DNA of 23,301 nt from the IMG/VR virus record IMGVR_UViG_2531839468_000008, positions 1 through 23,301 of that record, one strand, 5' to 3'. Made by a program: the position numbers and the translations under genes. This document shows positions 9,143 to 23,301 of the stretch, in pieces. The DNA is from a virus (lineage: Duplodnaviria; Heunggongvirae; Uroviricota; Caudoviricetes). The notes beneath the pieces are model-generated. The model had not been told where the DNA came from and made no database searches. It saw only the letters and a program-made list of their open reading frames with translations. The first letter of the stretch is position 1, and the number at the start of each line of letters is the position of its first letter.

Positions 9143-9613
9143 ATGAAGGATGGTGCGCTGCTCAGGAGTTCTTCACTTTTTATTGCCTACATGGGATGCC
9201 TTGGATGGGGGAGTGCTTATTTCTATGGATGGGGTACTTCTTTTTACTACGGCTTCCCATGGTGGATTGTAGGTGCAGGTGTTGATGATGTTGCCAGAAG
9301 TTTATTTTTTGCAGTTATCGTCATTGCTATATTTCTTATCGGTTGGGGTATTGGTGTTGTATTCTTTTTCGCAGTGAAAAGAAAACATTCTATGCAAGAG
9401 CTAAATGTATTTCGCCTTTATTTTGCTGTGGAATTATTGTTTGTGCCGGCAATTATTGAGTTTTCTATATTGAGACAGAAGATTCAGGTACCTCTTTTGC
9501 TACTGTCAGCAGCGATTGCGCTGGCAGTTACAATTTCGATAAGATCTTATGGGCGATTTTTATCGGTATCATGCTTCTATGATAAGCCATTTATAAAAAA
9601 CATTTTTTTGTAG
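9143..9613 (+). CDS. Predicted multi-pass membrane protein of unknown function (Trp/Tyr/Gly/Phe-rich), in an AT-rich island
   Basis: ORF with SD-like GGGGTGG 4 nt upstream of the ATG at 9143; three to four hydrophobic segments (e.g. FFAVIVIAIFLIGWGIGVVFFFAV). The reading frame may continue past 9613 if a homopolymer length is wrong (see findings). Confidence 0.5.
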   Translation: MKDGALLRSSSLFIAYMGCLGWGSAYFYGWGTSFYYGFPWWIVGAGVDDVARSLFFAVIVIAIFLIGWGIGVVFFFAVKRKHSMQELNVFRLYFAVELLFVPAIIEFSILRQKIQVPLLLLSAAIALAVTISIRSYGRFLSVSCFYDKPFIKNIFL

Positions 9614-10288
9614 ATTGTGATGATTGCTTTTGTGGCATATTTCTGGCTTTTTCATTTCTGACAGGATATTACAAACCGCAGTTTAAGAAAGAATATGAAA
9701 TGATTAATTATAATGATGGTTGGTATTATGTTCTTGCTCGTTATGATAATTGTCTGGTTTTGTCTACTTCTTTCAATGCAGGTAGTAAAAGGTTTGTCAT
9801 TTATCAATCAGCACAAGATAAGAATCTTCAGGTTGATATTGTAAGGACCAGAATTTAATCGGCTGCATAAATAATATTTTAAGTTGCAAGTTGGCTATTC
9901 GTAGGAATAGAACCTTAGGCATGCTGAATGCGTTTTCTGAACATTGTTTTATAAACTGTGTCTGCTTGCTGTTGTGATCCTGCTTTTAGTGATGGTGATG
10001 ATGGATTTCACCAGCAGGATAATGTTGGTACTGACTGATGGCGCTCTGGTCTGCGGCATTGTGGTATTGCTGTGGCCGATGATGAAAGAACAGAATGAAT
10101 AATTCTTGACTTTTTTGTTTACTGTTTATTAAAAAATCAACCGCATGGTGAATCCTCCTTGGAGGGGCTAAATGATCGAGTTTTAAGGGCACGTAGCGAG
10201 TTCTGTTTGATCATTGCAGAACTTAGCGGGAGGCGCCATGCGTACATCACTAATGTTATTTCCTTCTATCATTTTCCTTGTGAGTTCT

Positions 10289-10315
10289 GGCTGCGCATGG
10301 CGCGGCCTTTTTTTT
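10289..10315 (+). terminator. Intrinsic terminator upstream of the nanS-like gene
   Basis: 8-bp stem GGCTGCGC / GCGCGGCC (one G·U pair) with a 3-nt loop, followed by eight T residues (10308-10315). Confidence 0.65.
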
Positions 10316-10401
10316 ATGACCTGCCACTGGCAGATGGTCATCCTGTGATTTGATTCCGGTTCCGGCTTTTTAACTCTGTTCCTGTACACGGGAGAAATTC
10401 G

Positions 10402-12339
10402 ATGTCGATTAAACATTATGATGTTGTCAGGGCGGCGTCGCCGTCAGATCTTGCGGAAAAGCTGACACACAAACTGAAAGAGGGCTGGCAGCCGTTTGGT
10501 AGTCCTGTGGCCATAACCCCTTATACCCTGATGCAGGCGATTGCCGCGGAGGGGGATGTGACCACGCCAGTGGTTGTGCCCGGCACGGGGGATGGTGGCT
10601 ATCCGGGAGTGGTCACCACGGAGCCAGATTATTACTACGTTATTCCACTGGCCGGGCAGTCGAACGGCATGGCTTACGGTGAGGGGCTTCCTCTGCCGCA
10701 GACATATGACCGTCCTGACCCGCGTATAAAGCAACTGGCTCGTCGCAGCACAGTGACGCCGGATGGCGCTCCCTGTAAATATAACGACATTATTCCGGCA
10801 GACCACTGTCTGCATGATGTACAGGACATGAGCCGTCTTAACCATCCGAAAGCTGACCTGTCGAAAGGTCAGTACGGAACCGTGGGGCAGGGGCTGCATA
10901 TTGCCAAAAAGCTGCTGCCGTTTATACCGGCGAATGCGGGTATTCTTCTGGTTCCGTGCTGCCGTGGTGGTTCAGCTTTCACCACCGGGGCAGATGGAAC
11001 ATACAGTGACGTGACCGGTGCCTCAGAGAGTTCTACCCGCTGGGGTGTGGGCAGGCCGCTGTATAAGGATCTCATCGGTCGTACAAAAGCCGCGCTGGCA
11101 AAGAACCCGAAAAATGTGCTGCTTGCCGTGGTGTGGATGCAGGGGGAATTTGACTTTGACGGAACGCCAGCAAATCACACAGCCCGTTTTACAGAAGTAG
11201 TGGAACAATATCGTACGGACCTTGCAGATATGGTGGGACAGTGCGCTGGTGGTTCTGCTGACGGTGTTCCCTGGATATGTGGAGACACAACTTATTTCTG
11301 GAAGCAGAAGAGCGAATCCACTTACCAGACGGTGTACGGCAGTTACAAAAACAAAACGGAAAAGAATATTCACTTTGTGCCGTTCATGACCGATGAGAAC
11401 GGAGCAAATGTCCCGACGAACAAACCGGAAGAAGACCCGGATATTCCGGCATCAGGATATTACGGTGCGGCCTCCCGGACGTCGGCAAACTGGACGTCAG
11501 CAGACCGTGCGAGCCATTTCAGCTCATGGGCACGCAGGGGGATTATTTCTGACCGTCTTGCCTCAGCGATTCTTCTCCATGCAGGACGGACGGCTGAACT
11601 GGTGGGTGGGGAACAGGTTGTGATGCCGCCGGATGAGAAGCCGTCACCGGACACACCATCAACACCGTCAACGGACGGGAAATCAGTGACAACGCTGCTT
11701 TATTACCGTGCAACAGAGTCAGGTGGTTTACTGAATCCGCAGGGATGGGGAGCTGAAGGAGGGCGTGCATTGGTAGTTGATGATGCAGGTGCTGCAGGAG
11801 GTAAGGCGCTGAGGTGGACCAAACAGACAGGAAGTTCCTCGTGGTTTATGCAGCATGATGTCGGTAATGGCGCAGACCTGCTGGAGAAGGGCGGGCTTAT
11901 CAGTTGTCGTTTTAAAGTTGATGGCACACTGACAGCTAATCAGTACGCACTGGCGCTGTACTGGCCGGTTTCTTCACTGCCTCAGGGCGTCACACTGGAA
12001 GGTAATGCCGGTCATAACCTGCTGGCGTCGTTTTACGTACAGAGCGATGCCACAGACCTTAATGTGATGTACCACAAGGGAAATGCTGGTCAGAACACGA
12101 AGCTGGGGTCATTCGGCGCATTTGATAACGAATGGCATACGCTGGGCTTCCGTTTTGCCGGTAACAACAGTATTGAGGTGACGCCGGTCATTGATGGTAA
12201 GGACGGGACGCCGTTCATGCTGTCACAGTCACCGGTCGGCACGTTTACGGCAGACAAATTGCGCGTGACCGATATCACTAGCGGTGCGACATATCCGGTG
12301 CTGATTGAAAGTATAACAGTGGAAGTGAATAACCCGTAA
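10402..12339 (+). CDS. nanS: Prophage NanS-like sialate O-acetylesterase (N-terminal DUF1737-like domain plus SGNH/SASA hydrolase domain), 645 aa
   Basis: Translation begins MSIKHYDVVRAASPSDLAEKLTHKLKEGWQPFGSPVAITPYTLMQAIAA…, the conserved N terminus of prophage NanS-p proteins; SD GGGAG is upstream of the ATG. Size and position (between Q and the lysis genes) agree with that family. Confidence 0.8.
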   Translation: MSIKHYDVVRAASPSDLAEKLTHKLKEGWQPFGSPVAITPYTLMQAIAAEGDVTTPVVVPGTGDGGYPGVVTTEPDYYYVIPLAGQSNGMAYGEGLPLPQTYDRPDPRIKQLARRSTVTPDGAPCKYNDIIPADHCLHDVQDMSRLNHPKADLSKGQYGTVGQGLHIAKKLLPFIPANAGILLVPCCRGGSAFTTGADGTYSDVTGASESSTRWGVGRPLYKDLIGRTKAALAKNPKNVLLAVVWMQGEFDFDGTPANHTARFTEVVEQYRTDLADMVGQCAGGSADGVPWICGDTTYFWKQKSESTYQTVYGSYKNKTEKNIHFVPFMTDENGANVPTNKPEEDPDIPASGYYGAASRTSANWTSADRASHFSSWARRGIISDRLASAILLHAGRTAELVGGEQVVMPPDEKPSPDTPSTPSTDGKSVTTLLYYRATESGGLLNPQGWGAEGGRALVVDDAGAAGGKALRWTKQTGSSSWFMQHDVGNGADLLEKGGLISCRFKVDGTLTANQYALALYWPVSSLPQGVTLEGNAGHNLLASFYVQSDATDLNVMYHKGNAGQNTKLGSFGAFDNEWHTLGFRFAGNNSIEVTPVIDGKDGTPFMLSQSPVGTFTADKLRVTDITSGATYPVLIESITVEVNNP

Positions 12340-12486
12340 GCAGGAAAAAAAGGCCGCCGGGGCAGGGAAAACAAGGAGCCAGAACCGGCGGCAAATGTCG
12401 TTATATCCAAAGCAAAACATGCAGGACACTTTTTTAACCAACAGGTATTAACGATGTCAACACCATATCAATAACCGGGAGGGATA

Positions 12487-12669
12487 ATGAGATTTGTACA
12501 GCTTATTTTATTGTATTTCTGCACGGTGGTGTGCACGTTATATCTGGTAAGTGGCGGGTATAAGGTTATCCGGAACTATATACGCAAAAAGATTGATGCC
12601 GCGGCGGCGGAAAAAATCAGCGCCAGCCAGTCAGCCGGAACAAAACCCGAAGAGCCTCTCATTTCGTAG
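12487..12669 (+). CDS. Small single-pass membrane protein (60 aa), hypothetical
   Basis: Strong SD GGGAGGG at 12477-12483 before the ATG at 12487; N-terminal hydrophobic helix LILLYFCTVVCTLYLV followed by a basic segment. Confidence 0.4.
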   Translation: MRFVQLILLYFCTVVCTLYLVSGGYKVIRNYIRKKIDAAAAEKISASQSAGTKPEEPLIS

Positions 12670-12706
12670 CAACTTTCTTAACAACACCTTTCAACGAGAA
12701 AATCCT

Positions 12707-12976
12707 ATGTCAGAAATAAAATCTCTGGTCACTGCTGAAGCAGTGAAGGACGTCCTGCGCTCTGAAGAAGTCAGAAGCGCACTGAAACAGCAACTCCGCC
12801 AGAATCTTGAGGCGCGTCTTGATGCTGAAGTGGATGCCATTCTGGATGAGCTGCTGGGGGGACCGGCTGCTCCTGAGCCTGAAGACGGCGCGGGTGACAG
12901 TGCTGTTTCAGATGGCGTTGTGTCTCAGCCTGACGGTAGCAGTGAGCCTCAGCCTGGCGGCGAAATGATGATGTAA
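12707..12976 (+). CDS. Hypothetical acidic protein (89 aa)
   Basis: Internal ATG of ORF-track ORF 12551-12976; translation MSEIKSLVTAEAVKDVLRSEEVRSALKQQLRQNLEARLDAEVDAILDELLGG…; the upstream part of the ORF-track ORF overlaps the preceding small gene. Confidence 0.45.
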   Translation: MSEIKSLVTAEAVKDVLRSEEVRSALKQQLRQNLEARLDAEVDAILDELLGGPAAPEPEDGAGDSAVSDGVVSQPDGSSEPQPGGEMMM

Positions 12977-13051
12977 CCATACGCAGGGGCTGTCGGTGTG
13001 AGCTGATGCCCCTCCTGTTGTTGTGAGCTTCCGGATTGCGGGAGACGGGGT

Positions 13052-13267
13052 ATGTACCAGATGGAAAAAATAACAACGGGTGTGTCATACACCACGTCAG
13101 CGGTGGGGACGGGATACTGGCTACTGCAGTTGCTGGACAAAGTCTCCCCATCCCAGTGGGTGGCAATAGGCGTATTGGGTAGCCTGGTGTTTGGCTTGCT
13201 GACGTATCTGACAAACCTTTATTTCAAGATTAAAGAAGATAAGCGTAAGGCTGCGAGAGGTGAATAA
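13052..13267 (+). CDS. S: Pinholin S (phage 21 S21 type) with dual-start motif (Met1 and Met4)
   Basis: Translation [71 protein letters not shown] matches phage 21 S along its length; two in-frame starts at 13052 and 13061. Confidence 0.9.
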
Positions 13268-13764
13268 TGTCGCCATCATTACGCAAGGCTGTTGCTGCTG
13301 CTATTGGTGGTGGGGCTGTTGCCATAGCGTCTGTGCTCATCACTGGTCCGAGTGGTGACGATGGCCTGGAAGGTGTCAGCTACATACCATACGAAGATAT
13401 CGTTGGCGTATGGACTGTATGTCACGGACACACCGGAAAAGACATCATTCCCGGTAAAACGTATACCGAAGCAGAATGCAAAGCCCTCCTGAATAAAGAC
13501 CTTGCCATGGTCGCCAGACAAATTAACCCGTACATCAAAGTCGATATACCGGAAACAACGCGCGGCGCTCTTTACTCGTTCGTTTACAACGTGGGCGCTG
13601 GTAATTTCAGAACATCGACGCTTCTTCGCAAAATAAACCAGGGTGATATCAAAGGCGCATGTGACCAGCTACGTCGCTGGACATACGCTGGCGGTAAGCA
13701 ATGGAAAGGGCTGATGACCCGTCGTGATATTGAGCGTGAAGTCTGTTTGTGGGGGCAGCAATGA
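13267..13764 (+). CDS. R: SAR endolysin R (lysozyme with N-terminal signal-anchor-release domain, phage 21 type)
   Basis: Translation [60 protein letters not shown]…; Gly/Ala-rich SAR helix followed by the lysozyme catalytic region. Start overlaps the S stop (TAATG). Confidence 0.9.
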
Positions 13765-14228
13765 GCAGGGTAACCGCGATTATCTCCGCTCTGGTTATTT
13801 GCATCATCGTCTGCCTGTCATGGGCTGTTAATCATTACCGTGATAACGCCATCGCCTACAAAGAGCAGCGCGACAAAAACGCCAGAGAGCTGAAGCAGGC
13901 GACCGCCACCATTACTGACATGCAGAAGCGCCAGCGTGCTGCTGATGCACTCGATGCTAAATACACGAAGGAGTTAGCCAATGCGAAAGCTGAAAATGAT
14001 GCTCTTCGGCGTAAGCTTGATAATGGTGGTCGGGTGCTCGTCAAAGGAAAATGCTCTGTGCCATCCTCAGCCGAAACCTCCAGCGCCTCCGGCATGGGCA
14101 ATGATGCCACCGTCGAACTCTCTTCAGTTGCTGGACGAAACGTTCTCGGTATCCGGGACGGAATTATCCGTGACCAAACAGCACTGAGAACGCTTCAGGA
14201 GTACATCAGGACGCAATGCCTGAAATAA
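13761..14228 (+). CDS. Rz: Spanin inner-membrane subunit Rz
   Basis: Translation [45 protein letters not shown]…, lambda Rz-like N terminus; start overlaps the R stop (ATGA). Confidence 0.85.
13981..14187 (+). CDS. Rz1: Spanin outer-membrane lipoprotein Rz1, embedded in the +1 frame of Rz
   Basis: Translation [44 protein letters not shown]…; lipobox MVVGC and a proline-rich mature part, entirely inside Rz. Confidence 0.8.
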
Positions 14229-14259
14229 TTTTTTTGCAAATCACAAAGTCAATTTAATG

Positions 14260-14286
14260 AGCCTCGCGATGCGGGGCTTTTTTATG
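14260..14286 (+). terminator. Intrinsic terminator after the lysis cassette
   Basis: 8-bp stem AGCCTCGC / GCGGGGCT (one G·U pair) with a GAT loop, followed by TTTTTTAT. Confidence 0.6.
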
Positions 14287-14426
14287 TCCGCAGTAAACGC
14301 GCATCTCACGCGCATATTAACGAGAGCCTTTCAGTAAGCGAGCCTGAGAAATGCCGTTATAGGTGGCGACCTCTCTCGGGCGGCTTTTCTGTGAGACAGG
14401 CTCACTTTCTAAAAGGTAAAGACGCT

Positions 14427-14951
14427 ATGAATAATCATTCAGTTATTCCAGCCTTCGACTTCCGAGAAATGGTGCAAGCCAAAAACGGAGAGGTCGTTAC
14501 CACATCCAGAAAAATTGCCAAGTACTTCGGCAAGCGACACGGTGATGTTCTCAGGAAAATCGAGCAGGTTAAGGTTGATTGCTCGCGTGAGTTTAGCCAA
14601 CGCAATTTTGCGTCGGCTGATTATATCGATGAGCAGGGCAAGGTTCGCCCGATGTACAGCCTGACGAAAGATGGCTGGATCATGGTTGTGATGGGGTTCA
14701 CCGGGAAAGCTGCTGCGGCAATCAAGGAGAGCTATATCGCAGCATTCAACTGGATGGCAGAGCAACTGAGCCGCCGCATGGCAATTGGCGAAGAAATGCA
14801 GCACCGCTACGCCATCAAAGAAACACGCTCAAAGCTGAAAGGTACGATCGGCAGTCGGTTAATGAACGAACGGAAGAGAGAGAAGCGTGTCCTGGCTGTC
14901 GAGCATGAATACATTTTGCAGGTGACACAGCCTGAACTGCTGATTAATTGA
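14427..14951 (+). CDS. rha: Rha-family phage regulatory protein
   Basis: Translation MNNHSVIPAFDFREMVQAKNGEVVTTSRKIAKYFGKRHGDVLRKIEQ…; the FGKRH(D/G)xVLR motif is typical of the Phage_pRha domain. Start is internal to ORF-track ORF 14391-14951. Confidence 0.8.
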   Translation: MNNHSVIPAFDFREMVQAKNGEVVTTSRKIAKYFGKRHGDVLRKIEQVKVDCSREFSQRNFASADYIDEQGKVRPMYSLTKDGWIMVVMGFTGKAAAAIKESYIAAFNWMAEQLSRRMAIGEEMQHRYAIKETRSKLKGTIGSRLMNERKREKRVLAVEHEYILQVTQPELLIN

Positions 14952-15328
14952 AGATGTCATTACAAAGCCTATCTACGGGTGGGCTTGATAATGGCTTATA
15001 CCCTGCACGGGATAACTTAACTGATATCCCTTTTAACGGATAAAGGTATTCAGGCCTGACACATCATGCGCTGTATCGTCGCCGTATTCCCGCATTAACC
15101 ATGACCGTAGCCCGACGGGGAACTCCTCTGCGCGAGTGTGCGGGAATAATCAAAAACGATGCACACCGGGTTTTTACCGCGCTAATGATTCGCGGGTTTG
15201 TCCCTCATGCTCGCCAGTCTTGTGCGAGGGTGGAAGAAACAGGGCATGTATTCAGGAGCGTGCGACCGTGGTCGCACGACGCTGGTCTGTCAGACATTGA
15301 ATTCATTGCGAATAAACCAGAACGCTTG

Positions 15329-15520
15329 CGGGTCCTTTCCGGCAATCCGACAGGTTACGGGGCGGCGACCTCGCGGGTTTTCGCTATTTATGAAAATTTT
15401 CCGGGAACCATGTCCGGTTTCTCTTCAAGTTAACTATATGAAAAATATAAAAACAGGTCTTCTGTGAACCGGACATGCACAAAAAATAGACATGTAAGCC
15501 GGACATGACCGGTTTTGTTG
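15329..15520. other. cos region: cosQ-like segment, cosN (12-nt cohesive end GGGCGGCGACCT at 15360-15371) and cosB with three CCGGACATG repeats
   Basis: GGGTCCTTTCCGGCAATCCGACAGGTTACG then GGGCGGCGACCTCGCGGGTTTTCGCTATTTATGAAAATTTTCCGG is the lambda cos junction almost base for base; downstream repeats at 15409-15417 (inverted), 15469-15477 and 15499-15507 with an AT-rich stretch between the first two. Confidence 0.85.
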
Positions 15521-15554
15521 TGATTGTGAGGTGAGAGTTTTTGCGAGGTGAGGA

Positions 15555-16063
15555 GTGGCTACGCAGACTGAAGTTGCCAGGCATTTAAGTCTGACCGATC
15601 GCCAGCTTCGCAGATTGCAGAAATTGCCGGGTGCCCCGATATCAAATAAGCGAGGGCAACTGGATCTGGATGCCTGGCGCGATTTTTACATATCGTATCT
15701 GAGGAGAAGTAAAAACGATGTGCCTGATTGGCGATAGCGAAGACGACTATGAGGAAAAATTGCTTATTGCCAGATGGGAACTGACAGCAGAACAGGCTGT
15801 TACACAGCAGTTAAAAATGAGGTGTCAAAGGAAAACTTATTGACACCGGGTTCTGTATTTTTGCCCTCAGTAAGCTGGCAATGGCGTTATCCAGTACGCT
15901 TGATTCCATCCCTTTATCCATGCAACGACAGTTTCCTGATTTAACACCGCGCCATCTTGACCATCTGAAAACCCTTATTGCGAAGGGGGCAAATCAGTGT
16001 GCGCGGGCGGGGGATAAATTACCGGATTTACTCGATGAATATATCAGAGCAACAACTGAATAA
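15555..16063 (+). pseudogene. nu1: Terminase small subunit Nu1, reading frame changes twice (or read errors)
   Basis: N-terminal part in ORF 15555-15737 (GTG start, HTH-like); C-terminal part in ORF 15881-16063 (…LSKLAMALSSTLDSIPLSMQRQFPDLTPRHLDHLK…, parallel to lambda Nu1 …LSRIAGEIASILDGLPLSVQRRFPELENRHVDFLK…). The middle segment is readable only in the third frame; shifts lie near A-runs at 15711-15715 and 15827-15835. Confidence 0.75.
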
Positions 16064-17960
16064 TATGATGAGTACTGTCACAACAGCATTACAGCCCCTG
16101 ATAAGGGCATTGCCGGTGACGCCAGTTGAATGGGCTGATCAAAATTATTATCTGCCGAAAGAATCTTCATATGGTGAGGGAGAATGGAAAACGCTGCCAT
16201 TCCAGATCGCCATTATGAACTGTATGGGTAACGACCAGGTTCGCACGGTTAACCTGATTAAATCTGCCCGTGTTGGCTATACAAAGATGTTGCTGGGGGT
16301 GGTCGGGTATTTATTGAGCATAAATCCCGAAACAGTCTGCTTTTTCAGCCCACGGATTCTGCCGCTGAAGATTTTATGAAGTCTCACGCGGAGGCGACGA
16401 TTAGGGACGTGCCATGCCTGAAAGACCTTTCCCCATGGCTGGGTCGTAAACATCGTGATAATACCCTCACGCTGAAACGCTTTTCATCGGGTGTGGGCTT
16501 CTGGTGCCTGGGCGGCGCTGCCGCCAAAAACTACCGTGAAAAATCCGTGGACGTGGTCTGCTATGACGAACTTTCCTCGTTCGAGCCGGATGTCGAAAAA
16601 GAGGGCTCGCCAACCCTGCTGGGGGATAAACGTATTGAGGGCTCTGTATGGCCAAAATCCATTCGCGGCTCGACGCCTAAAATCAAAGGCACCTGTCAGA
16701 TCGAAAAAGCCGCTAACGAGTCGGCACATTTTATGCGTTTTTATGTGTCCTGCCCGCACTGTGGGGAGGCGCAGTATCTGAAATTTGGCGATGAGTCCAC
16801 GCCTTTTGGCCTTAAATGGGAGAAGGACAGCCCCGAAAGCGTTTTCTACCTCTGTGAACATCATGGCTGCGTGATCCATCAGTCTGAGCTTGACCAGAAC
16901 AACGGGCGGTGGATCTGTGAAAACACGGGCATGTGGACCCGTGACGGCCTGATGTTTTTCAGCGCCCGGGGTGATGAAATTCCGCCGCCGCGCTCCATCA
17001 CTTTCCACATCTGGACGGCGTACAGTCCGTTCACCACCTGGGTACAGATAGTCTATGACTGGCTGGATGCACTGAAAGATCCCAACGGCCTGAAAACCTT
17101 TGTGAACACCACGCTGGGCGAGACCTGGGAAGAGGCCGTGGGCGAAAAACTCGATCACCAGGTACTGATGGATAAGGTGGTGCGCTACACGGCGGCGGTG
17201 CCTGCCCGGGTGGTTTATCTGACGGCGGGCATTGACTCGCAGCGAAACCGTTTTGAGATGTATGTCTGGGGATGGGCTCCGGGAGAGGAAGCCTTTCTGG
17301 TGGATAAAATCATCATTATGGGGCGTCCTGATGAGGAAGAGACGCTGTTACGTGTGGACGCGGCGATCAACAAAAAATACCGCCATGCAGACGGAACCGA
17401 AATGACCATTTCCCGTGTCTGCTGGGACACCGGGGGATCGATGGCGAAATCGTTTATCAGAGGTCAAAAAACACGGTGTTTTCCGGGTGCTGCCGGTAAA
17501 AGGCGCATCTGTCTATGGCAAGACCGGTGATCACCATGCCAAAAACCCGCAATCAGCGGGGCGTGTATCTGTGTGAAGTGGGGACGGACACCGCAAAAGA
17601 ATTCTCTATGCCCGTATGAAAGCCGATCCCACGCCTGTGGATGAAGCCACGTCGTATGCCATCCGTTTTCCTGATGATCCGGAGATTTTTTCGCAGACAG
17701 AGGCGCAGCAACTGGTCGCGGAAGAGCTTGTGGAGAAGTGGGAAAAAGGAAAGATGCGTCTGCTGTGGGATAACAAAAAGCGGCGTAACGAAGCGCTGGA
17801 CTGCCTGGTGTATGCCTACGCGGCATTACGTGTGTCCGTGCAACGCTGGCAGCTTGATCTGGCTGTACTGGCAAAATCCCGGGAGGAAGAGACGACCCGG
17901 CCAACCCTTAAAGAACTGGCAGCGAAGCTGTCCGGAGGAGTGAATGGTTACAGTCGCTGA
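16035..17960 (+). pseudogene. A: Terminase large subunit A, split over about five frame changes (or read errors)
   Basis: Lambda gpA-like segments read in successive frames: MNISEQQLNNMM…MLLGVVGY (to about 16310); FIEHK…WDTGG (ORF 16376-17530); IDGEIVYQRSK; KHGVFRVLPVKGASVYGK; PVITMPKTRNQRGVYLCEVGTDTAKE; then ORF 17616-17960. Shifts are at T-run 16308-16313, G5 17432-17436, A6 17466-17471, near 17510-17520 and A4 17594-17597. Confidence 0.85.
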
Positions 17961-18150
17961 ACTGCAGGCGCTGCGTCAGGCGCGCCTTGATTTATTAACC
18001 GGTAAACGGGTGGTGTCTGTCCAGAAAGATGGTCGCAGAATTGAATATACGGCGGCTTCTCTGGATGAGCTTAACCGGGCGATCAATGATGCGGAGTCGG
18101 TACTGGGGACAACCCGGCGTCGCCGTCGTCCGCTGGGAGTGAGGTTATGA
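17944..18150 (+). CDS. W: Head-tail joining protein W (68 aa)
   Basis: Translation MVTVAELQALRQARLDLLTGKRVVSVQKDGRRIEYTAASLDELNRAI… parallels lambda gpW; start overlaps the A stop. Confidence 0.9.
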   Translation: MVTVAELQALRQARLDLLTGKRVVSVQKDGRRIEYTAASLDELNRAINDAESVLGTTRRRRRPLGVRL

Positions 18151-19739
18151 AACGAACGCCTGTCCTGATTGATGTGAACGGCGTTCCGCTTCGTGAGAGT
18201 CTCAGCTACAACGGGGGCGGCGCAGGATTTGGCGGGCAAATGGCGGAGTGGTTGCCACCGGCGCAGAGTGCCGATGCGGCCCTGCTGCCCGCGTTGCGTC
18301 TGGGGAATGCCCGGGCAGATGATCTGGTGCGCAATAACGGAATAGCGGCCAATGCGGTGGCACTGCATAAGGATCACATTGTCGGGCATATGTTTCTGAT
18401 CAGCTACCGTCCGAACTGGCGCTGGCTGGGGATGCGGGAGACCGCAGCAAAAAGCTTTGTCGATGAGGTGGAGGCGGCCTGGTCGGAATACGCCGAAGGG
18501 ATGTCTGGCGAGATCGACGTGGAAGGAAAACGCACGTTCACGGAATTTATCCGTGAAGGTGTGGGCGTTCATGCGTTTAACGGCGAAATCTTTGTGCAGC
18601 CGGTCTGGGATACGGAAACCACGCAGTTATTCCGTACGCGTTTTAAAGCCGTGAGTCCGAAACGGGTGGACACGCCTGGACACGGTATGGGGAACCGTTT
18701 TCTGCGGGCCGGGGTGGAGGTCGATCGATATGGCCGTGCCGTTGCGTACCATATCTGTGAGGATGATTTTCCGTTCTCCGGGAGTGGACGATGGGAACGG
18801 ATCCCGCGTGAACTTCCCACCGGGCGTCCGGCCATGCTGCATATTTTCGAGCCGGTGGAGGACGGGCAGACCCGTGGGGCTAATCAGTTTTACAGCGTCA
18901 TGGAACGGCTGAAGATGCTCGATTCCCTGCAGGCAACACAGCTTCAGTCGGCCATTGTGAAAGCCATGTATGCAGCGACGATTGAAAGTGAACTTGATAC
19001 CGAAAAGGCCTTTGAATATATCGCCGGCGCGCCACAGGAGCAGAAGGATAATCCGCTTATTAATATTCTGGAGAAGTTCTCCAGCTGGTATGACACGAAT
19101 AACGTGACACTGGGCGGTGTCAAAATTCCGCGCCTTTTCCCTGGTGATGATCTGAAACTACAGACTGCGCAGGATTCAGACAATGGATTTTCTGCGCTTG
19201 AACAGGCGCTGCTGCGGTATATCGCCGCCGGTCTTGGCGTTTCCTACGAACAGTTGTCCCGTGATTACTCGAAGGTCAGTTATTCAAGTGCCAGGGCCTC
19301 TGCCAATGAGTCGTGGCGCTATTTTATGGGGCGGCGAAAATTTATTGCGGCCCGGCTGGCCACGCAGATGTTTTCCTGCTGGCTGGAAGAGGCACTTCTT
19401 CGGGGGATTATTCGTCCGCCACGGGCACGTTTTGATTTTTATCAGGCGCGATCAGCCTGGTCACGGGCAGAGTGGATTGGTGCCGGAAGAATGGCCATTG
19501 ACGGGCTCAAGGAGGTTCAGGAATCGGTGATGCGCATTGAGGCCGGACTGAGCACGTATGAGAAAGAGCTGGCGCTGATGGGCGAGGATTATCAGGACAT
19601 TTTCCGCCAGCAGGTCAGGGAATCTGCTGAGCGGCAAAAAGCCGGACTCTCACGTCCGGTGTGGATAGCGCAGGCGTATCAGCAGCAGATAGCGGAGAGT
19701 CGCAGGCCGGAAGAGGAGACAACACCACGTGAGACGTAA
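18147..19739 (+). CDS. B: Portal protein B (530 aa)
   Basis: Lambda gpB-like over full length (e.g. …FEPVEDGQTRGANQFYSVMERLKMLDSLQATQLQSAIVKAMYAATIESELDT…); intact single frame. Confidence 0.95.
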   Translation: MKRTPVLIDVNGVPLRESLSYNGGGAGFGGQMAEWLPPAQSADAALLPALRLGNARADDLVRNNGIAANAVALHKDHIVGHMFLISYRPNWRWLGMRETAAKSFVDEVEAAWSEYAEGMSGEIDVEGKRTFTEFIREGVGVHAFNGEIFVQPVWDTETTQLFRTRFKAVSPKRVDTPGHGMGNRFLRAGVEVDRYGRAVAYHICEDDFPFSGSGRWERIPRELPTGRPAMLHIFEPVEDGQTRGANQFYSVMERLKMLDSLQATQLQSAIVKAMYAATIESELDTEKAFEYIAGAPQEQKDNPLINILEKFSSWYDTNNVTLGGVKIPRLFPGDDLKLQTAQDSDNGFSALEQALLRYIAAGLGVSYEQLSRDYSKVSYSSARASANESWRYFMGRRKFIAARLATQMFSCWLEEALLRGIIRPPRARFDFYQARSAWSRAEWIGAGRMAIDGLKEVQESVMRIEAGLSTYEKELALMGEDYQDIFRQQVRESAERQKAGLSRPVWIAQAYQQQIAESRRPEEETTPRET

Positions 19740-21234
19740 TCTTTCACACATTATTGCCGCAGCATTCAATGAACCGCTGCTTCTGGAGCCCGCCTATGCG
19801 CGGGTTTTCTTTTGCGCGCTCGGGCGCGAGATGGGGGCAGCAAGTCTTTCGGTACCACAGCAGCAGGTACAGCTTGATGCTCCCGGAATGCTGGCTGAAA
19901 CGGACGAGTACATGGCCGGAGGTAAACGACCGGCCCGTGTTTACCGGGTGGTGAACGGTATTGCTGTACTGCCGGTGACCGGCACGCTGGTGCACCGGCT
20001 GGGTGGTATGCGGCCATTTTCCGGAATGACAGGCTATGACGGTATTGTCGCCTGTCTTCAGCAGGCAATGGCGGATAGCCAGGTGCGGGGCGTACTGCTG
20101 GACATTGACAGTCCGGGCGGGCAGGCCGCCGGCGCGTTTGACTGCGCTGACATGATTTACCGCCTCCGTCAGCAGAAGCCGGTCTGGGCACTGTGCAATG
20201 ACACGGCCTGTTCTGCAGCCATGCTGCTGGCGTCGGCCTGCTCCCGACGGCTGGTTACCCAGACATCCCGTATCGGTTCCATTGGCGTGATGATGAGCCA
20301 TGTCAGCTATGCCGGTCATCTGGCGCAGGCCGGTGTGGATATCACGCTGATTTACTCAGGGGCGCACAAGGTGGATGGCAATCAGTTTGAAGCGTTGCCG
20401 GCAGAGGTTCGCCAGGACATGCAGCAGCGGATTGATGCGGCGCGCCGGATGTTTGCCGAAAAAGTGGCGATGTTTACCGGTCTGTCTGTTGATGCCGTCA
20501 CGGGAACAGAGGCCGCCGTTTTTGAAGGTCAGTCCGGCATTGAGGCCGGGCTGGCGGATCAATTAATCAATGCGTCGGATGCCATCAGCGTGATGGCTGG
20601 GGCGCTGAACACACATGATACAGGAGGCACTATGCCGCAATTAACTGCAACGGAAGCCGCCGCGCAGGAGAACCAGCGAGTGATGGGGATCCTGACGTGT
20701 CAGGAAGCGAAAGGACGTGAACAGCTTGCCACGATGCTGGCAGGACAACAGGGCATGAGCGTTGAACAGGCCCGGGCGATTCTGGCCGCGGCGGCACCGC
20801 AGCAGCCGGTGGCATCCACGCAGAGTGAAGCCGATCGCATTATGGCGTGTGAAGAGGCGAAAGGTCGTGAACAACTGGCGGCAACGCTGGCGGCGATGCC
20901 GGAGATGACGGTGGAAAAAGCCCGCCCGATCCTGGCGGCTTCACCGCAGGCGGATGCCGGACCCTCACTCCGTGATCAGATCATGGCACTGGATGAGGCA
21001 AAAGGGGCTGAGGCGCAGGCTGAACAGCTGGCTGCCTGCCCGGGAATGACTGTGGAGAGCGCCCGGGCTGTGCTGGCGGCGGGATCAGGTAAGGCAGAGC
21101 CGGTCTCTGCATCCACAACCGCCCTGTTTGAACGCATCATGGCGAACCATTCACCGGCAGCGGTACAGGGTGGCGTGCCACAGACGTCAGCAGATGGTGA
21201 TGCGGACGTGAAAATGCTCATGGCCATTCCATGA
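19729..21234 (+). CDS. C: Prohead protease C (ClpP/SppA-like S49 peptidase) with in-frame Nu3-like scaffold region at the 3' end; 501 aa, longer than lambda C
   Basis: GTG start with AGGAGA 9 nt upstream; translation …AFNEPLLLEPAYARVFFCALG…DIDSPGG…IGSIGVMMSHVSYAG… is lambda gpC-like; the C-terminal third contains three related repeats of about 37 aa. Confidence 0.9.
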   Translation: MRRNLSHIIAAAFNEPLLLEPAYARVFFCALGREMGAASLSVPQQQVQLDAPGMLAETDEYMAGGKRPARVYRVVNGIAVLPVTGTLVHRLGGMRPFSGMTGYDGIVACLQQAMADSQVRGVLLDIDSPGGQAAGAFDCADMIYRLRQQKPVWALCNDTACSAAMLLASACSRRLVTQTSRIGSIGVMMSHVSYAGHLAQAGVDITLIYSGAHKVDGNQFEALPAEVRQDMQQRIDAARRMFAEKVAMFTGLSVDAVTGTEAAVFEGQSGIEAGLADQLINASDAISVMAGALNTHDTGGTMPQLTATEAAAQENQRVMGILTCQEAKGREQLATMLAGQQGMSVEQARAILAAAAPQQPVASTQSEADRIMACEEAKGREQLAATLAAMPEMTVEKARPILAASPQADAGPSLRDQIMALDEAKGAEAQAEQLAACPGMTVESARAVLAAGSGKAEPVSASTTALFERIMANHSPAAVQGGVPQTSADGDADVKMLMAIP

Positions 21235-21270
21235 AGCCAGTGCTGACCATCAACAGGAGTTTTTTACAAT

Positions 21271-21618
21271 ATGGTGACGAAAACCATCACTGAACAGCGT
21301 GCGGAAGTACGTATTTTTGCCGGTAATGATCCGGCTCATACCGCCACAGGCAGCAGCGGGATTTCCTCGGCAACACCGGCACTGACGCCCCTGATGCTGG
21401 ATGAAGCCACCGGGAAACTGGTGGTCTGGGACGGACAGAAAGCCGGTAGTGCGGTTGGCATACTGGTACTGCCGCTTGAAGGCACAGAGACGGCGCTGAC
21501 GTATTACAAGTCGGGAACCTTTGCGACGGAGGCAATCCACTGGCCTGAAAGTGTGGATGAACACAAAAAGGCCAACGCCTTTGCCGGCAGTGCCCTGAGT
21601 CACGCGGCGCTGCCGTAA
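21271..21618 (+). CDS. D: Head decoration protein D
   Basis: Translation …NDPAHTATGSSGISSATPALTPLMLDEATGKLVVWDGQKAGSAVGILVLP…TYYKSGTF… parallels lambda gpD. Confidence 0.9.
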   Translation: MVTKTITEQRAEVRIFAGNDPAHTATGSSGISSATPALTPLMLDEATGKLVVWDGQKAGSAVGILVLPLEGTETALTYYKSGTFATEAIHWPESVDEHKKANAFAGSALSHAALP

Positions 21619-21675
21619 CACGTTATCAGGCCACCGCGGTGGCCTGACTGATTTCTGAATGAAAGGAACTGATTT

Positions 21676-22704
21676 ATGGGATTGTTTACGACCCGCCAGT
21701 TACTCGGTTATACCGAACAAAAAGTTAAATTTCGTGCGCTGTTTCTGGAGCTGTTTTTCCGCCGTACGGTGAATTTCCATACCGAAGAGGTGATGCTGGA
21801 CAAAATTACCGGAAAAACGCCGGTGGCGGCCTATGTCTCCCCGGTTGTTGAAGGAAAAGTGCTGCGTCATCGTGGTGGTGAAACCCGCGTGTTACGTCCG
21901 GGCTACGTCAAGCCGAAACACGAATTTAATTACCAGCAGGCGGTTGAGCGCCTTCCTGGTGAAGATCCATCTCAACTGAATGATCCGGCTTACCGCCGTC
22001 TGCGTATCATTACCGATAACCTCAAACAGGAAGAGCACGCGATTGTCCAGGTGGAAGAAATGCAGGCGGTAAATGCTGTGTTGTATGGCAAATACACCAT
22101 GGAAGGAGACCAGTTCGAGAAAATTGAGGTCGATTTTGGCAGGTCGACGAAGAATAACATCACTCAGGGTAGTGGTAAGGAGTGGTCAAAACAGGATCGT
22201 GACACGTTCGATCCTACACATGATATTGACCTCTACTGCGACCAGGCCAGCGGTCTTGTGAATATTGCCATTATGGACGGTACCGTCTGGCGTCTTCTGA
22301 ATGGTTTTAAGCTGTTCCGCGAAAAACTGGATACCCGTCGCGGTTCAAATTCTCAACTCGAAACGGCAGTGAAAGATCTGGGCGCAGTGGTGTCCTTCAA
22401 GGGGTATTACGGCGATCTGGCCATTGTGGTGGCGAAAACGTCTTATATAGCAGAAGACGGTATCGAAAAACGTTATCTTCCAGATGGCATGCTGGTTCTG
22501 GGGAATACTGCTGCAGATGGGATCCGTTGTTACGGTGCCATTCAGGATGCTCAGGCGTTGTCCGAAGGTGTGGTGGCCTCTTCCCGTTATCCGAAACACT
22601 GGCTGACGGTAGGGGATCCCGCCCGTGAATTTACCATGACGCAGTCCGCGCCGCTGATGGTGTTGCCGGACCCGGATGAGTTTGTGGTGGTACAGGTGAA
22701 ATAA
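21676..22704 (+). CDS. E: Major capsid protein E (342 aa)
   Basis: Lambda gpE-like over full length (…PGYVKPKHE…AYRRLRII…VEEMQAV…KLDTRRGSNSQLETAVKDLG…GDPAREFTMTQSAPLMVLPDPDEFV…). Confidence 0.95.
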   Translation: MGLFTTRQLLGYTEQKVKFRALFLELFFRRTVNFHTEEVMLDKITGKTPVAAYVSPVVEGKVLRHRGGETRVLRPGYVKPKHEFNYQQAVERLPGEDPSQLNDPAYRRLRIITDNLKQEEHAIVQVEEMQAVNAVLYGKYTMEGDQFEKIEVDFGRSTKNNITQGSGKEWSKQDRDTFDPTHDIDLYCDQASGLVNIAIMDGTVWRLLNGFKLFREKLDTRRGSNSQLETAVKDLGAVVSFKGYYGDLAIVVAKTSYIAEDGIEKRYLPDGMLVLGNTAADGIRCYGAIQDAQALSEGVVASSRYPKHWLTVGDPAREFTMTQSAPLMVLPDPDEFVVVQVK

Positions 22705-22712
22705 TCCGTGAG

Positions 22713-22741
22713 CGGGGGCGAAATGCCCCCGTGTCTTTTTT
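22713..22741 (+). terminator. Hairpin followed by a T-run just after E (putative attenuator or partial terminator)
   Basis: 7-bp stem CGGGGGC / GCCCCCG with a GAAAT loop, then GTGTC and six T residues (22736-22741). Confidence 0.4.
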
Positions 22742-22755
22742 CACAGGGGGCTGAT

Positions 22756-23130
22756 ATGGCAACGAAAGAGCAAAATCTGAAACGGCTTGATGAACTGGCC
22801 CTGATTCTGGGGCGTGAGCCGGATATATCCGGGAGTGCCGCAGAGATAGCGCAGCGGGTGGCAGAATGGGAAGAGGAAATGCAGTCATCCGGCGATGATG
22901 TACAGGTTATGAATATGGATATCCGGGAGCGGGAAACCGCGGCTCATGATGTTCGTGAGGAAACATCCGGCGCGTTAACGCGCATCAGAGTTCTGACCTG
23001 CCTCCATCTCTGTGGCGTTGATGGTGAAACGGGGGAATCCGTTGAGCTTGCGGATGTTGGTCGGGTGATTCTGATTATGTCCTCAGATGCAAAAACACAT
23101 GTTGATGGTGGAATGGCTGTTTATGCGTGA
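22756..23130 (+). CDS. FI: DNA packaging protein FI-like
   Basis: Internal ATG of ORF 22708-23130; acidic protein with N terminus MATKEQNLKRLDELALILGRE… resembling lambda FI (MTKDELIARLRSLGEQLNRD…) in position and character. Confidence 0.7.
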   Translation: MATKEQNLKRLDELALILGREPDISGSAAEIAQRVAEWEEEMQSSGDDVQVMNMDIRERETAAHDVREETSGALTRIRVLTCLHLCGVDGETGESVELADVGRVILIMSSDAKTHVDGGMAVYA

Positions 23131-23301
23131 TTTTCAGAATGCCTTTGATGCCGCCCTTGCCGGGGTGGACAGTACGATTGTTGAAGTGATGGGCATCAGT
23201 GCGCAGTTCACCTCCGGTGCACAGCGTGGCGGCGAAGTTCAGGGGGTTTTTGACGATCCGGAGTCGCTGGGGTTTGCCAGTAGTGGGATCCGTATTGAAG
23301 G
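23123..23301 (+). CDS. FII: Head completion protein FII, 5' portion (continues past window end)
   Basis: ATG at 23123 overlapping the FI stop; translation MRDFQNAFDAALAGVDSTIVEVMGISAQFTSGAQRGGEVQGVFDDPESLGFASSGIRIE parallels lambda FII (MADFDNLFDAAIARADETIRGYMGTSATITSGEQSGAVIRGVFDDPENISYAGQGVRVEG). Confidence 0.8.
   Translation, partial: MRDFQNAFDAALAGVDSTIVEVMGISAQFTSGAQRGGEVQGVFDDPESLGFASSGIRIE

What the first reader, a model, noticed from the sequence alone, without database searches (positions are those of the whole stretch)
15555..17960. Terminase genes nu1 and A are riddled with frame changes while neighbouring structural genes are intact
nu1 needs two frame changes and A about five to read through, yet W, B (530 aa), C (501 aa), D, E, and on the early side O, P, Q and nanS, are single intact frames. 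A real concentration of lesions in the packaging enzyme would make this a packaging-defective cryptic prophage. If they are read errors, their clustering in 2.4 kb is itself odd and might reflect locally low coverage.
Basis: seen in the sequence. Interest (0 to 1): 0.5.

Follow-up and report, generated by a model that had tools for sequence, protein, structure and literature searches.

The report
Terminase frameshifts are probably sequencing errors
The eight frame breaks in this prophage's DNA-packaging genes are really in the deposited sequence, but they look like homopolymer miscalls in a 2011 draft assembly rather than biological decay, so the finding is most likely an artefact.

Summary
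Against intact relatives, nu1 (15555-16063) carries 3 single-base indels and A (16035-17960) carries 5, while W, B, C, D, E, O, P, Q and nanS are intact. The damage is not confined to terminase, though. cII has 2 such indels, a 247-aa TfpB-like gene has 3, and the ISEc20 transposase has 1.

The window is a whole contig, AFDT01000019.1, from the draft assembly GCA_000225085.2 of porcine ETEC strain 3030-2. Sister accessions from the same batch were sequenced on 454 Titanium and assembled with Celera.

All 14 private indels are +/-1 base:
- 11 shorten a homopolymer run.
- 1 doubles a single T.
- 2 insert the base of the preceding run one position late, which is the carry-forward/incomplete-extension pattern of flow-based sequencing.

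About 28 relatives were compared. None shares these indels except at one A7 hot spot. Relative L019 is identical to the window over the 5.9 kb just upstream and has intact nu1 and A. Substitution density in nu1-A is similar to that of the intact neighbours, and differences from the nearest complete genome are mostly synonymous, so there is no sign of decay.

The clustering is real (P about 3e-5) and only partly explained by homopolymer density, which points to a locally poor consensus.

Verdict: probable sequencing or assembly artefact (about 0.8); genuine terminase inactivation about 0.12. Interest is low.

The parts
15555..16063 (+). nu1 (terminase small subunit), split into three frames by 3 single-base indels. 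The intact homologue is 169 aa.
   Evidence: ORFs; alignment to L001, L002 and L019; Pfam Phage_Nu1 on the 15881-16063 fragment.
16035..17960 (+). A (terminase large subunit, gpA ATPase plus nuclease), split by 5 single-base indels. The intact homologue is 642 aa.
   Evidence: Pfam GpA_ATPase and GpA_nuclease match the fragments. The source's own gene calls are 104, 373 and 114 aa.
15728..15729 (+). Extra T (T read as TT); +1 frameshift in nu1.
   Evidence: absent from every relative examined.
15813..15817 (+). A5 run that is A6 in all relatives; -1 frameshift in nu1.
15827..15829 (+). A3 run that is A4 in all relatives; -1 frameshift in nu1.
16310..16312 (+). T3 run that is T4 in all relatives; -1 frameshift in A.
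17432..17436 (+). G5 run that is G6 in relatives; -1 frameshift in A.
17466..17471 (+). A6 run that is A7 in relatives; -1 frameshift in A. This run is a recurrent hot spot: it is also shortened in two RefSeq genomes annotated 'frameshifted'.
   Evidence: L005 has A6, L004 has A5.
17523..17523 (+). Extra A after 'AAG' (GCAAG[A]CCGG); +1 frameshift in A. The inserted base repeats the preceding run one base later.
   Evidence: The 29-mer spanning it is absent from viral contigs, genome contigs and metagenome contigs.
17600..17601 (+). A2 run that is A3 in relatives; -1 frameshift in A.
3493..3785 (+). cII, also frameshifted twice (G6->G5 at 3671-3675, A6->A5 at 3732-3736).
   Evidence: In the search of 5,426 complete E. 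coli genomes, the best hit (99.4% identity) is 2 bases longer than the window.
9116..9860 (+). TfpB-like 247-aa gene with 3 indels within 55 nt (A7->A6 at 9595-9600, extra T at 9611 after T7-G, T6->T5 at 9648-9652).
277..1736 (+). ISEc20 (IS110 family) inserted about 57 nt upstream of the N start. Its transposase is split by a 1-base deletion near 673.

Best explanation
The frameshifts are errors in the deposited consensus, not lesions in the phage genes. The window is a complete contig of a 2011 draft assembly of E. coli 3030-2. That assembly was very probably made from flow-based (454 Titanium) reads assembled with Celera. Flow chemistry miscounts homopolymer lengths, and through carry-forward and incomplete extension it can add a spurious copy of a run's base one flow cycle later. 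Where the consensus rests on few or poor reads, these miscalls survive.

nu1-A is about three times richer in long runs than the GC-rich head genes next to it, and on top of that it seems to be a stretch of locally weak consensus. The real genes are most likely one 169-aa nu1 and one 642-aa A, as in near-identical prophages.

Shown: the indel positions, types and privacy; the lack of a decay signature; the identity of the contig. Inferred: the sequencing platform of this particular assembly, and low local coverage or quality.
For: 1. Source. The exact portal protein occurs on one contig only, AFDT01000019.1 (23301 bp, equal to the window), from GCA_000225085.2. AFDT01 is strain 3030-2 (PMC4358887). 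Adjacent accession prefixes AFDQ, AFDR, AFDU, AFDV, AFDW, AFDY, AFDZ and AFEA were 454 Titanium 3-kb paired-end reads assembled with Celera v6 (PMC3491183).

2. Spectrum. All 14 private indels in the window are +/-1 base. Eleven shorten a run, one doubles a single T, and two insert the base of the preceding run after one intervening G (T7-G-[T] at 9611, AA-G-[A] at 17523). In 454 reads indels far outnumber mismatches and are tied to homopolymers and carry-forward/incomplete extension (PMC3116506).

3. Privacy. About 28 relatives from complete genomes, phage isolates, drafts, a Logan assembly and IMG/VR were compared. None has any of the 8 indels except at the A7 hot spot. Scans for the 17523 insertion found nothing in three collections.

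4. No decay signature. L019 is identical to the window over 9861-15727 (5.9 kb) and has intact nu1 and A. Against L019, nu1-A shows 7 substitutions in about 2.4 kb, and W to the contig end shows 24 in about 5.3 kb, so the densities are similar. Against L001, nu1 differs at 4 synonymous and 0 nonsynonymous sites, and A differs at 24 synonymous sites and 11 nonsynonymous codons.

5. The same lesion type hits unrelated genes: cII, the TfpB-like gene and the ISEc20 transposase.

6. A look-alike control. The Logan contig L033 shows 9 deleted bases, all in homopolymer runs, in 1.65 kb of the same gene.

7. Homopolymer opportunity. There are 24 runs >=5 in 2.4 kb of nu1-A against 17 in 4.7 kb of W-E.
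Against: - The platform and coverage of AFDT01 itself were not seen; they are inferred from sister accessions.
- Eleven long runs (up to T8, A7, T7) in the adjacent 9861-15727 are correct, so a uniform homopolymer error rate does not explain the cluster. A locally poor consensus must be assumed, and its cause is unknown.
- Six of the 8 private substitutions also sit in the two indel-bearing segments. That is more than pure 454 error would predict, and it could mean those segments have a separate history.
- Real slippage mutations also favour homopolymers.
- The prophage carries an IS between pL and N, so genuine defectiveness is not implausible.
Confidence: 0.8

Rival explanations
1. Genuine inactivation. 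The prophage of strain 3030-2 really carries eight slippage frameshifts in nu1 and A, so it cannot make terminase and is a packaging-defective cryptic prophage.
For: - Slippage in runs is the commonest natural indel type.
- The A7 run at 17466-17471 is also shortened in two RefSeq complete genomes annotated 'frameshifted'.
- ISEc20 sits between pL and N, so the prophage may already be non-inducible and free to decay.
- The four private substitutions in nu1-A include two nonsynonymous ones.
- Clustering survives run-length adjustment.
Against: - Eight indels against 4 private substitutions is far from the roughly 1:10 indel-to-substitution ratio of E. coli mutation accumulation (own knowledge, Lee et al. 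2012).
- There are zero differences in the adjacent 5.9 kb against L019.
- Once terminase is dead the head genes are equally neutral, yet 5.3 kb of them has 0 indels.
- No nonsense mutation, multi-base deletion or IS lies within nu1/A.
- No other assembly shares the lesions.
- Two insertions repeat the base of a preceding run across an intervening G, which slippage does not produce.
Confidence: 0.12
2. Consensus artefact from collapsed paralogues. Reads from two or more similar lambdoid prophages in the same genome were merged in this stretch, and the mixed alignment produced spurious indels and a few odd bases, whatever the per-read error type.
For: - The indel-bearing segments tend to be multi-copy in E. 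coli genomes: nu1-A has a median of 2 and up to 5 places per genome, and the 9050-10420 segment has a median of 6 and up to 11. ISEc20 is a repeat.
- The contig ends inside N and inside a head-tail gene, as expected if the assembler broke at repeats.
- Private substitutions co-localise with the indel clusters.
Against: - The other contigs of the assembly could not be read, so copy number in this genome is unknown.
- A collapsed repeat normally has high coverage and good run-length calls.
- The head genes B-E are often equally repeated, yet they are clean.
- The private bases were not seen in any other allele sampled, so they do not look like bases borrowed from a paralogue.
Confidence: 0.2
3. 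Mutator burst. A mismatch-repair-deficient phase in the strain's history produced transitions and run-length frameshifts together.
For: Seven of the 8 private substitutions are transitions, and the indels are +/-1 in runs. This matches the spectrum expected of a mismatch-repair-deficient mutator (own knowledge).
Against: - A mutator acts genome-wide. It would not spare eleven runs >=6 in the adjacent 5.9 kb or the whole of B-E.
- Indels outnumber substitutions.
- Transitions also dominate ordinary polymorphism.
Confidence: 0.03

Closest known systems
Terminase genes 1 and 2 of phage 21, and nu1/A of lambda-like prophages (Pfam Phage_Nu1; GpA_ATPase + GpA_nuclease)
   Same: - Gene order matches: cos, nu1, A, W, B, C, D, E.
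- The A-W stretch is 93.5% identical at DNA level to phage 21.
- The whole stretch is 98.0% identical to intact prophage copies in complete E. coli genomes, and W-to-end plus nu1-A is 99.5% identical to L019.
- Pfam domains match on the fragments.
   Different: As deposited, the two genes are broken into seven pieces by eight single-base indels. Most sampled homologues have single ORFs of 169 aa and 642 aa.
Homopolymer-length and carry-forward/incomplete-extension errors of flow-based (454) sequencing
   Same: Only +/-1 indels occur. Eleven of 14 are undercalled runs, one is an overcall, and two are insertions of the preceding run's base one position later. The indels are private to one 2011 draft contig. 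Mismatches are fewer than indels (PMC3116506).
   Different: The density in nu1-A (1 per 300 bases) is much higher than in the flanks of the same contig, so a local cause such as thin or poor coverage has to be added. The platform of this exact assembly is inferred from sister accessions.
Defective lambdoid prophages with frameshifted morphogenesis genes, for example in EHEC O157 genomes
   Same: Some complete genomes do carry a terminase A annotated 'frameshifted', at the same A7 run or at a G run.
   Different: Those copies have one frameshift site each. This one has eight, all unshared apart from the A7 hot spot, and the flanks are near-identical to intact phages.

Membership tests
Lambda/phage-21-type terminase (Nu1 + gpA) | Sequence matches the Phage_Nu1, GpA_ATPase and GpA_nuclease profiles | tested here: met
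   The fragments score above the Pfam cut-offs: Nu1 33.8 bits, GpA_ATPase 114.9 and 42.7 bits, GpA_nuclease 159 and 44.2 bits.
Lambda/phage-21-type terminase (Nu1 + gpA) | Synteny: nu1 overlapping A, followed by W, portal B, protease C, D and E | tested here: met
   same order and same overlaps as in the annotated relatives.
Lambda/phage-21-type terminase (Nu1 + gpA) | Each subunit encoded by one open frame (about 169 aa and 642 aa) | tested here: not met
   3 + 5 frameshifts in the deposited sequence. They are probably not real (see the best explanation).
Decayed pseudogene in a cryptic prophage | Lesions reproduced in independent assemblies or related strains | tested here: not met
   No relative shares them except at the A7 hot spot. 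No second assembly of the same strain was available.
Decayed pseudogene in a cryptic prophage | Relaxed selection: excess substitutions, with nonsynonymous changes as frequent per site as synonymous ones | tested here: not met
   nu1 differs at 4 synonymous and 0 nonsynonymous sites; A at 24 synonymous sites and 11 nonsynonymous codons. Substitution density is similar to that of the intact neighbours. With only 4 private substitutions (2 nonsynonymous) the test has little power for the most recent branch.
Decayed pseudogene in a cryptic prophage | Mixed lesion types, and spread into genes that become neutral at the same time | tested here: not met
   only +/-1 indels, and 0 indels in 5.3 kb from W to the contig end.
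Flow-based sequencing error (454-type) | Errors are +/-1 run-length miscalls or carry-forward/incomplete-extension insertions | tested here: met
   14 of 14 private indels fit.
Flow-based sequencing error (454-type) | The assembly was made from flow-based reads | not testable with these tools
   Inferred only. Sister accessions of the same batch were 454 Titanium/Celera; nothing was found for AFDT itself.
Flow-based sequencing error (454-type) | Low depth or low consensus quality at the affected sites | not testable with these tools
The only indirect evidence is the clustering that persists after run-length adjustment.

The most novel reading that the evidence does not exclude
The eight frameshifts are real. 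They arose in a short burst confined to the terminase genes of an otherwise pristine prophage, through some localised slippage-prone process or through selection for loss of packaging while the head genes are kept, as might happen if a capsid-forming element were being domesticated.
Probability: 0.08. Interest if true: 0.4.

Novelty: not a real feature. Interest (0 to 1): 0.08.

Why it matters
If the lesions were real, this would be one more packaging-defective lambdoid prophage, a well-known kind of object and of modest interest. As a probable artefact its value is practical. Pseudogene calls and 'defective prophage' inferences drawn from 454-era draft contigs such as AFDT01 should not be trusted without checking whether the lesions are private +/-1 run-length changes. 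The same caution applies to the cII, TfpB-like and ISEc20 transposase breaks in this contig.

Tried and rejected
- Programmed frameshifting was rejected. There are eight shifts in both directions, none conserved in relatives.
- An old decayed segment brought in by recombination was considered. Divergence from L019 does begin at nu1, but substitution density in nu1-A is similar to that of the intact head genes, and the indels are unshared.
- A mutator burst was rejected because long runs in the flanks are spared.
- An exact look-up of the 384-aa A fragment found nothing, probably because the source's gene call uses a different start.
- Exact look-ups of B and O returned only the source contig, so no second assembly of the same prophage exists in the collection.
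- Scans for the 17523 insertion and for private substitutions 16074 and 16389 found nothing. The control allele occurs only once in IMG/VR, so the absence of the private substitutions says little.
- Other contigs that call the same 114-aa C-terminal A fragment as a separate gene do so for unrelated reasons: an IS21-family insertion, N gaps, or their own run deletions.
- Literature searches for AFDT00000000 and GCA_000225085 found no genome paper.
- No tRNA gene and no Rfam family was found in the window.

Full report
**What is there.** The window is the late-early to head region of a lambdoid prophage with phage-21-type head genes. The listed + strand ORFs between 15555 and 17960 break into seven pieces. 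The stretch 15450-18150 matches annotated 'terminase small subunit / terminase large subunit / head-tail joining / portal' loci in 1,255 of 5,426 complete E. coli genomes at up to 98.0% identity. It also matches phage isolates such as PhiR12 (96.3%) and phage 21 (93.5% over A-W). Pfam confirms Phage_Nu1, GpA_ATPase and GpA_nuclease on the fragments.

**The lesions.** Base-by-base alignment to intact copies gives exactly eight single-base indels (L001, L002, twelve relatives, L019, L037).
- In nu1: an extra T at 15728, A6->A5 at 15813-15817, and A4->A3 at 15827-15829.
- In A: T4->T3 at 16310-16312, G6->G5 at 17432-17436, A7->A6 at 17466-17471, an extra A at 17523, and A3->A2 at 17600-17601.

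**The neighbours.** W, B (530 aa), C (501 aa), D, E and FI are intact, as are O, P, Q, nanS, S, R and Rz.
- cII has G6->G5 and A6->A5, 61 nt apart. In a search of complete E. coli genomes, the best hit (99.4% identity) is 2 bases longer than the window.
- A 247-aa TfpB-like gene has A7->A6, an extra T and T6->T5 within 55 nt.
- The transposase of an ISEc20 copy has AA->A.

**Where the sequence comes from.** An exact look-up of the portal protein returned a single contig in the whole collection: AFDT01000019.1, 23301 bp, from assembly GCA_000225085.2. That contig is the window. AFDT01 is E. coli 3030-2, a porcine ETEC strain (PMC4358887). I found no paper describing how it was sequenced. The accession prefixes that interleave with it (AFDQ, AFDR, AFDU, AFDV, AFDW, AFDY, AFDZ, AFEA) belong to one sequencing-centre project. 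That project used 454 Titanium FLX 3-kb paired-end libraries and Celera v6.0 (PMC3491183). The platform of AFDT01 is thus inferred, not shown.

**Error or biology: spectrum.** All 14 private indels in the window are +/-1 base. Eleven shorten a homopolymer and one doubles a single T. The two insertions that are not run extensions both add the base of the immediately preceding run after one intervening G: TTTTTTTG[T]A at 9611 and AAG[A]CC at 17523. That is what lagging or carried-forward strands give in a flow-based chemistry. It is not what replication slippage gives. The 454 error literature reports indels at many times the mismatch rate, tied to homopolymers and to carry-forward/incomplete extension, with reproducible hot spots (PMC3116506). 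A Logan assembly of an unrelated sample (L033) shows 9 deleted bases, all in homopolymer runs, in 1.65 kb of the same gene, which illustrates the look of such errors.

**Error or biology: privacy.** Looking up the window's exact C protein found 24 or more contigs. Several of them (L018, L019, L020, L022, L024) carry the same prophage module with nu1 at 169 aa and A at 642 aa. About 28 relatives were examined, and none has any of the eight indels. The one exception is the A7 run, which is also shortened in two RefSeq genomes annotated 'frameshifted'. A 29-mer spanning the 17523 insertion is absent from IMG/VR, the GTDB species representatives and the JGI metagenomes.

**Error or biology: history.** L019 is identical to the window from 9861 to 15727. 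That is 5.9 kb including T8, A7 and T7 runs. It then differs in nu1-A by the 8 indels plus 7 substitutions, and from W to the contig end by 24 substitutions and no indel. Substitution density is therefore similar in the broken genes and in their intact neighbours. Against L001, nu1 differs at 4 synonymous and 0 nonsynonymous sites, and A differs at 24 synonymous sites and 11 nonsynonymous codons, comparable to B and C. Only four substitutions in nu1-A are private. Eight indels against four private substitutions is far from the roughly one-in-ten ratio of spontaneous mutation in E. coli (own knowledge). If terminase had really died first, the head genes would have become equally neutral, yet they carry no indel.

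**The clustering.** It is statistically real: 8 of 11 private indels in 7406-23301 lie in 15% of the bases (P = 3e-5). Part of this is opportunity. nu1-A has 24 runs of five or more in 2.4 kb, against 17 in 4.7 kb for W-E, and the GC-rich head genes hold only one run of six. Composition is not the whole story, though. Within run-length classes nu1-A is still worse: 3/5 against 2/19 for runs >=6, and 3/144 against 0/603 for runs of 3-5. Eleven long runs just upstream are correct. A locally poor consensus is therefore needed.

Its cause is not established. The affected segments tend to be multi-copy in E. coli genomes, and the contig ends inside N and inside a head-tail gene, as if the assembler broke at repeats. 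So thin or mixed read placement in repeats is a reasonable guess. I could not read the other contigs or the reads.

One observation fits pure base-calling error less well. Six of the eight private substitutions also lie in the two indel-bearing segments.

**Verdict.** The best-supported explanation is sequencing or assembly error in a 454-era draft contig (about 0.8), with collapse of paralogues as a possible contributing mechanism. Genuine terminase inactivation stays at about 0.12, because neither the platform nor the coverage was seen directly, and because the prophage has a real IS insertion upstream of N that could make it defective anyway. As biology the finding deserves low interest. 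As a caution about pseudogene calls in such drafts it is useful.

Noticed in passing
window 277-1736: An ISEc20 copy (IS110 family, 99.8% identical to plasmid copies) is inserted about 57 nt upstream of the N start codon, between pL/nutL and N. N lies on the - strand at 1-218 and is cut by the contig end. The related prophage L002 is uninterrupted at this point. Unlike the frameshifts, this is a structural feature that could really cripple induction.
   Followed up: partly
window 3493-3785: cII is frameshifted twice (G6->G5 at 3671-3675, A6->A5 at 3732-3736). In a search of 5,426 complete E. coli genomes, the best hit is 2 bases longer. Same lesion type as in the terminase genes.
   Followed up: yes
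window 9116-9860: A 247-aa TfpB-like gene downstream of Q has three indels within 55 nt, in an A7-C-T7 context. The A7->A6 change is also present in one RefSeq genome annotated 'frameshifted' (L017), so this run is a recurrent hot spot like the A7 run in gene A.
   Followed up: yes
window 4164-4202: A 39-bp in-frame insertion in the O gene relative to L002. It consists of two extra iteron-like repeats (CATCCCTCAAAACGAGGGA / GGTTCCCCTAAAATGAGGGA) in the ori region. The resulting 312-aa O protein is found on no other contig in the collection.
   Followed up: partly
L004, L005, L006 (RefSeq complete E. coli genomes), positions equivalent to window 17466-17471 and about 16295: Three of twelve sampled complete genomes also have a terminase A annotated 'frameshifted', each through run-length change at one homopolymer run (A7->A6, A7->A5, and 2 extra G in a G run). 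These could be recurrent real slippage or recurrent assembly error.
   Followed up: partly
window 18221-19331 (portal gene B): Against L019, gene B carries 18 substitutions in tight patches (18221-18362, 18713-18801, 18956-18992), while the adjacent C protein is identical at amino-acid level. All but one of these substitutions (19132) occur in other alleles, so this looks like ordinary mosaic recombination among lambdoid head genes.
   Followed up: partly
window 8864-13051: The region between Q and the holin holds the TfpB-like gene, DUF3927, nanS (SASA esterase, 645 aa), DUF1378 and DUF826. It has no stx genes and no tRNA genes. No Rfam family was detected anywhere in the window.
   Followed up: yes
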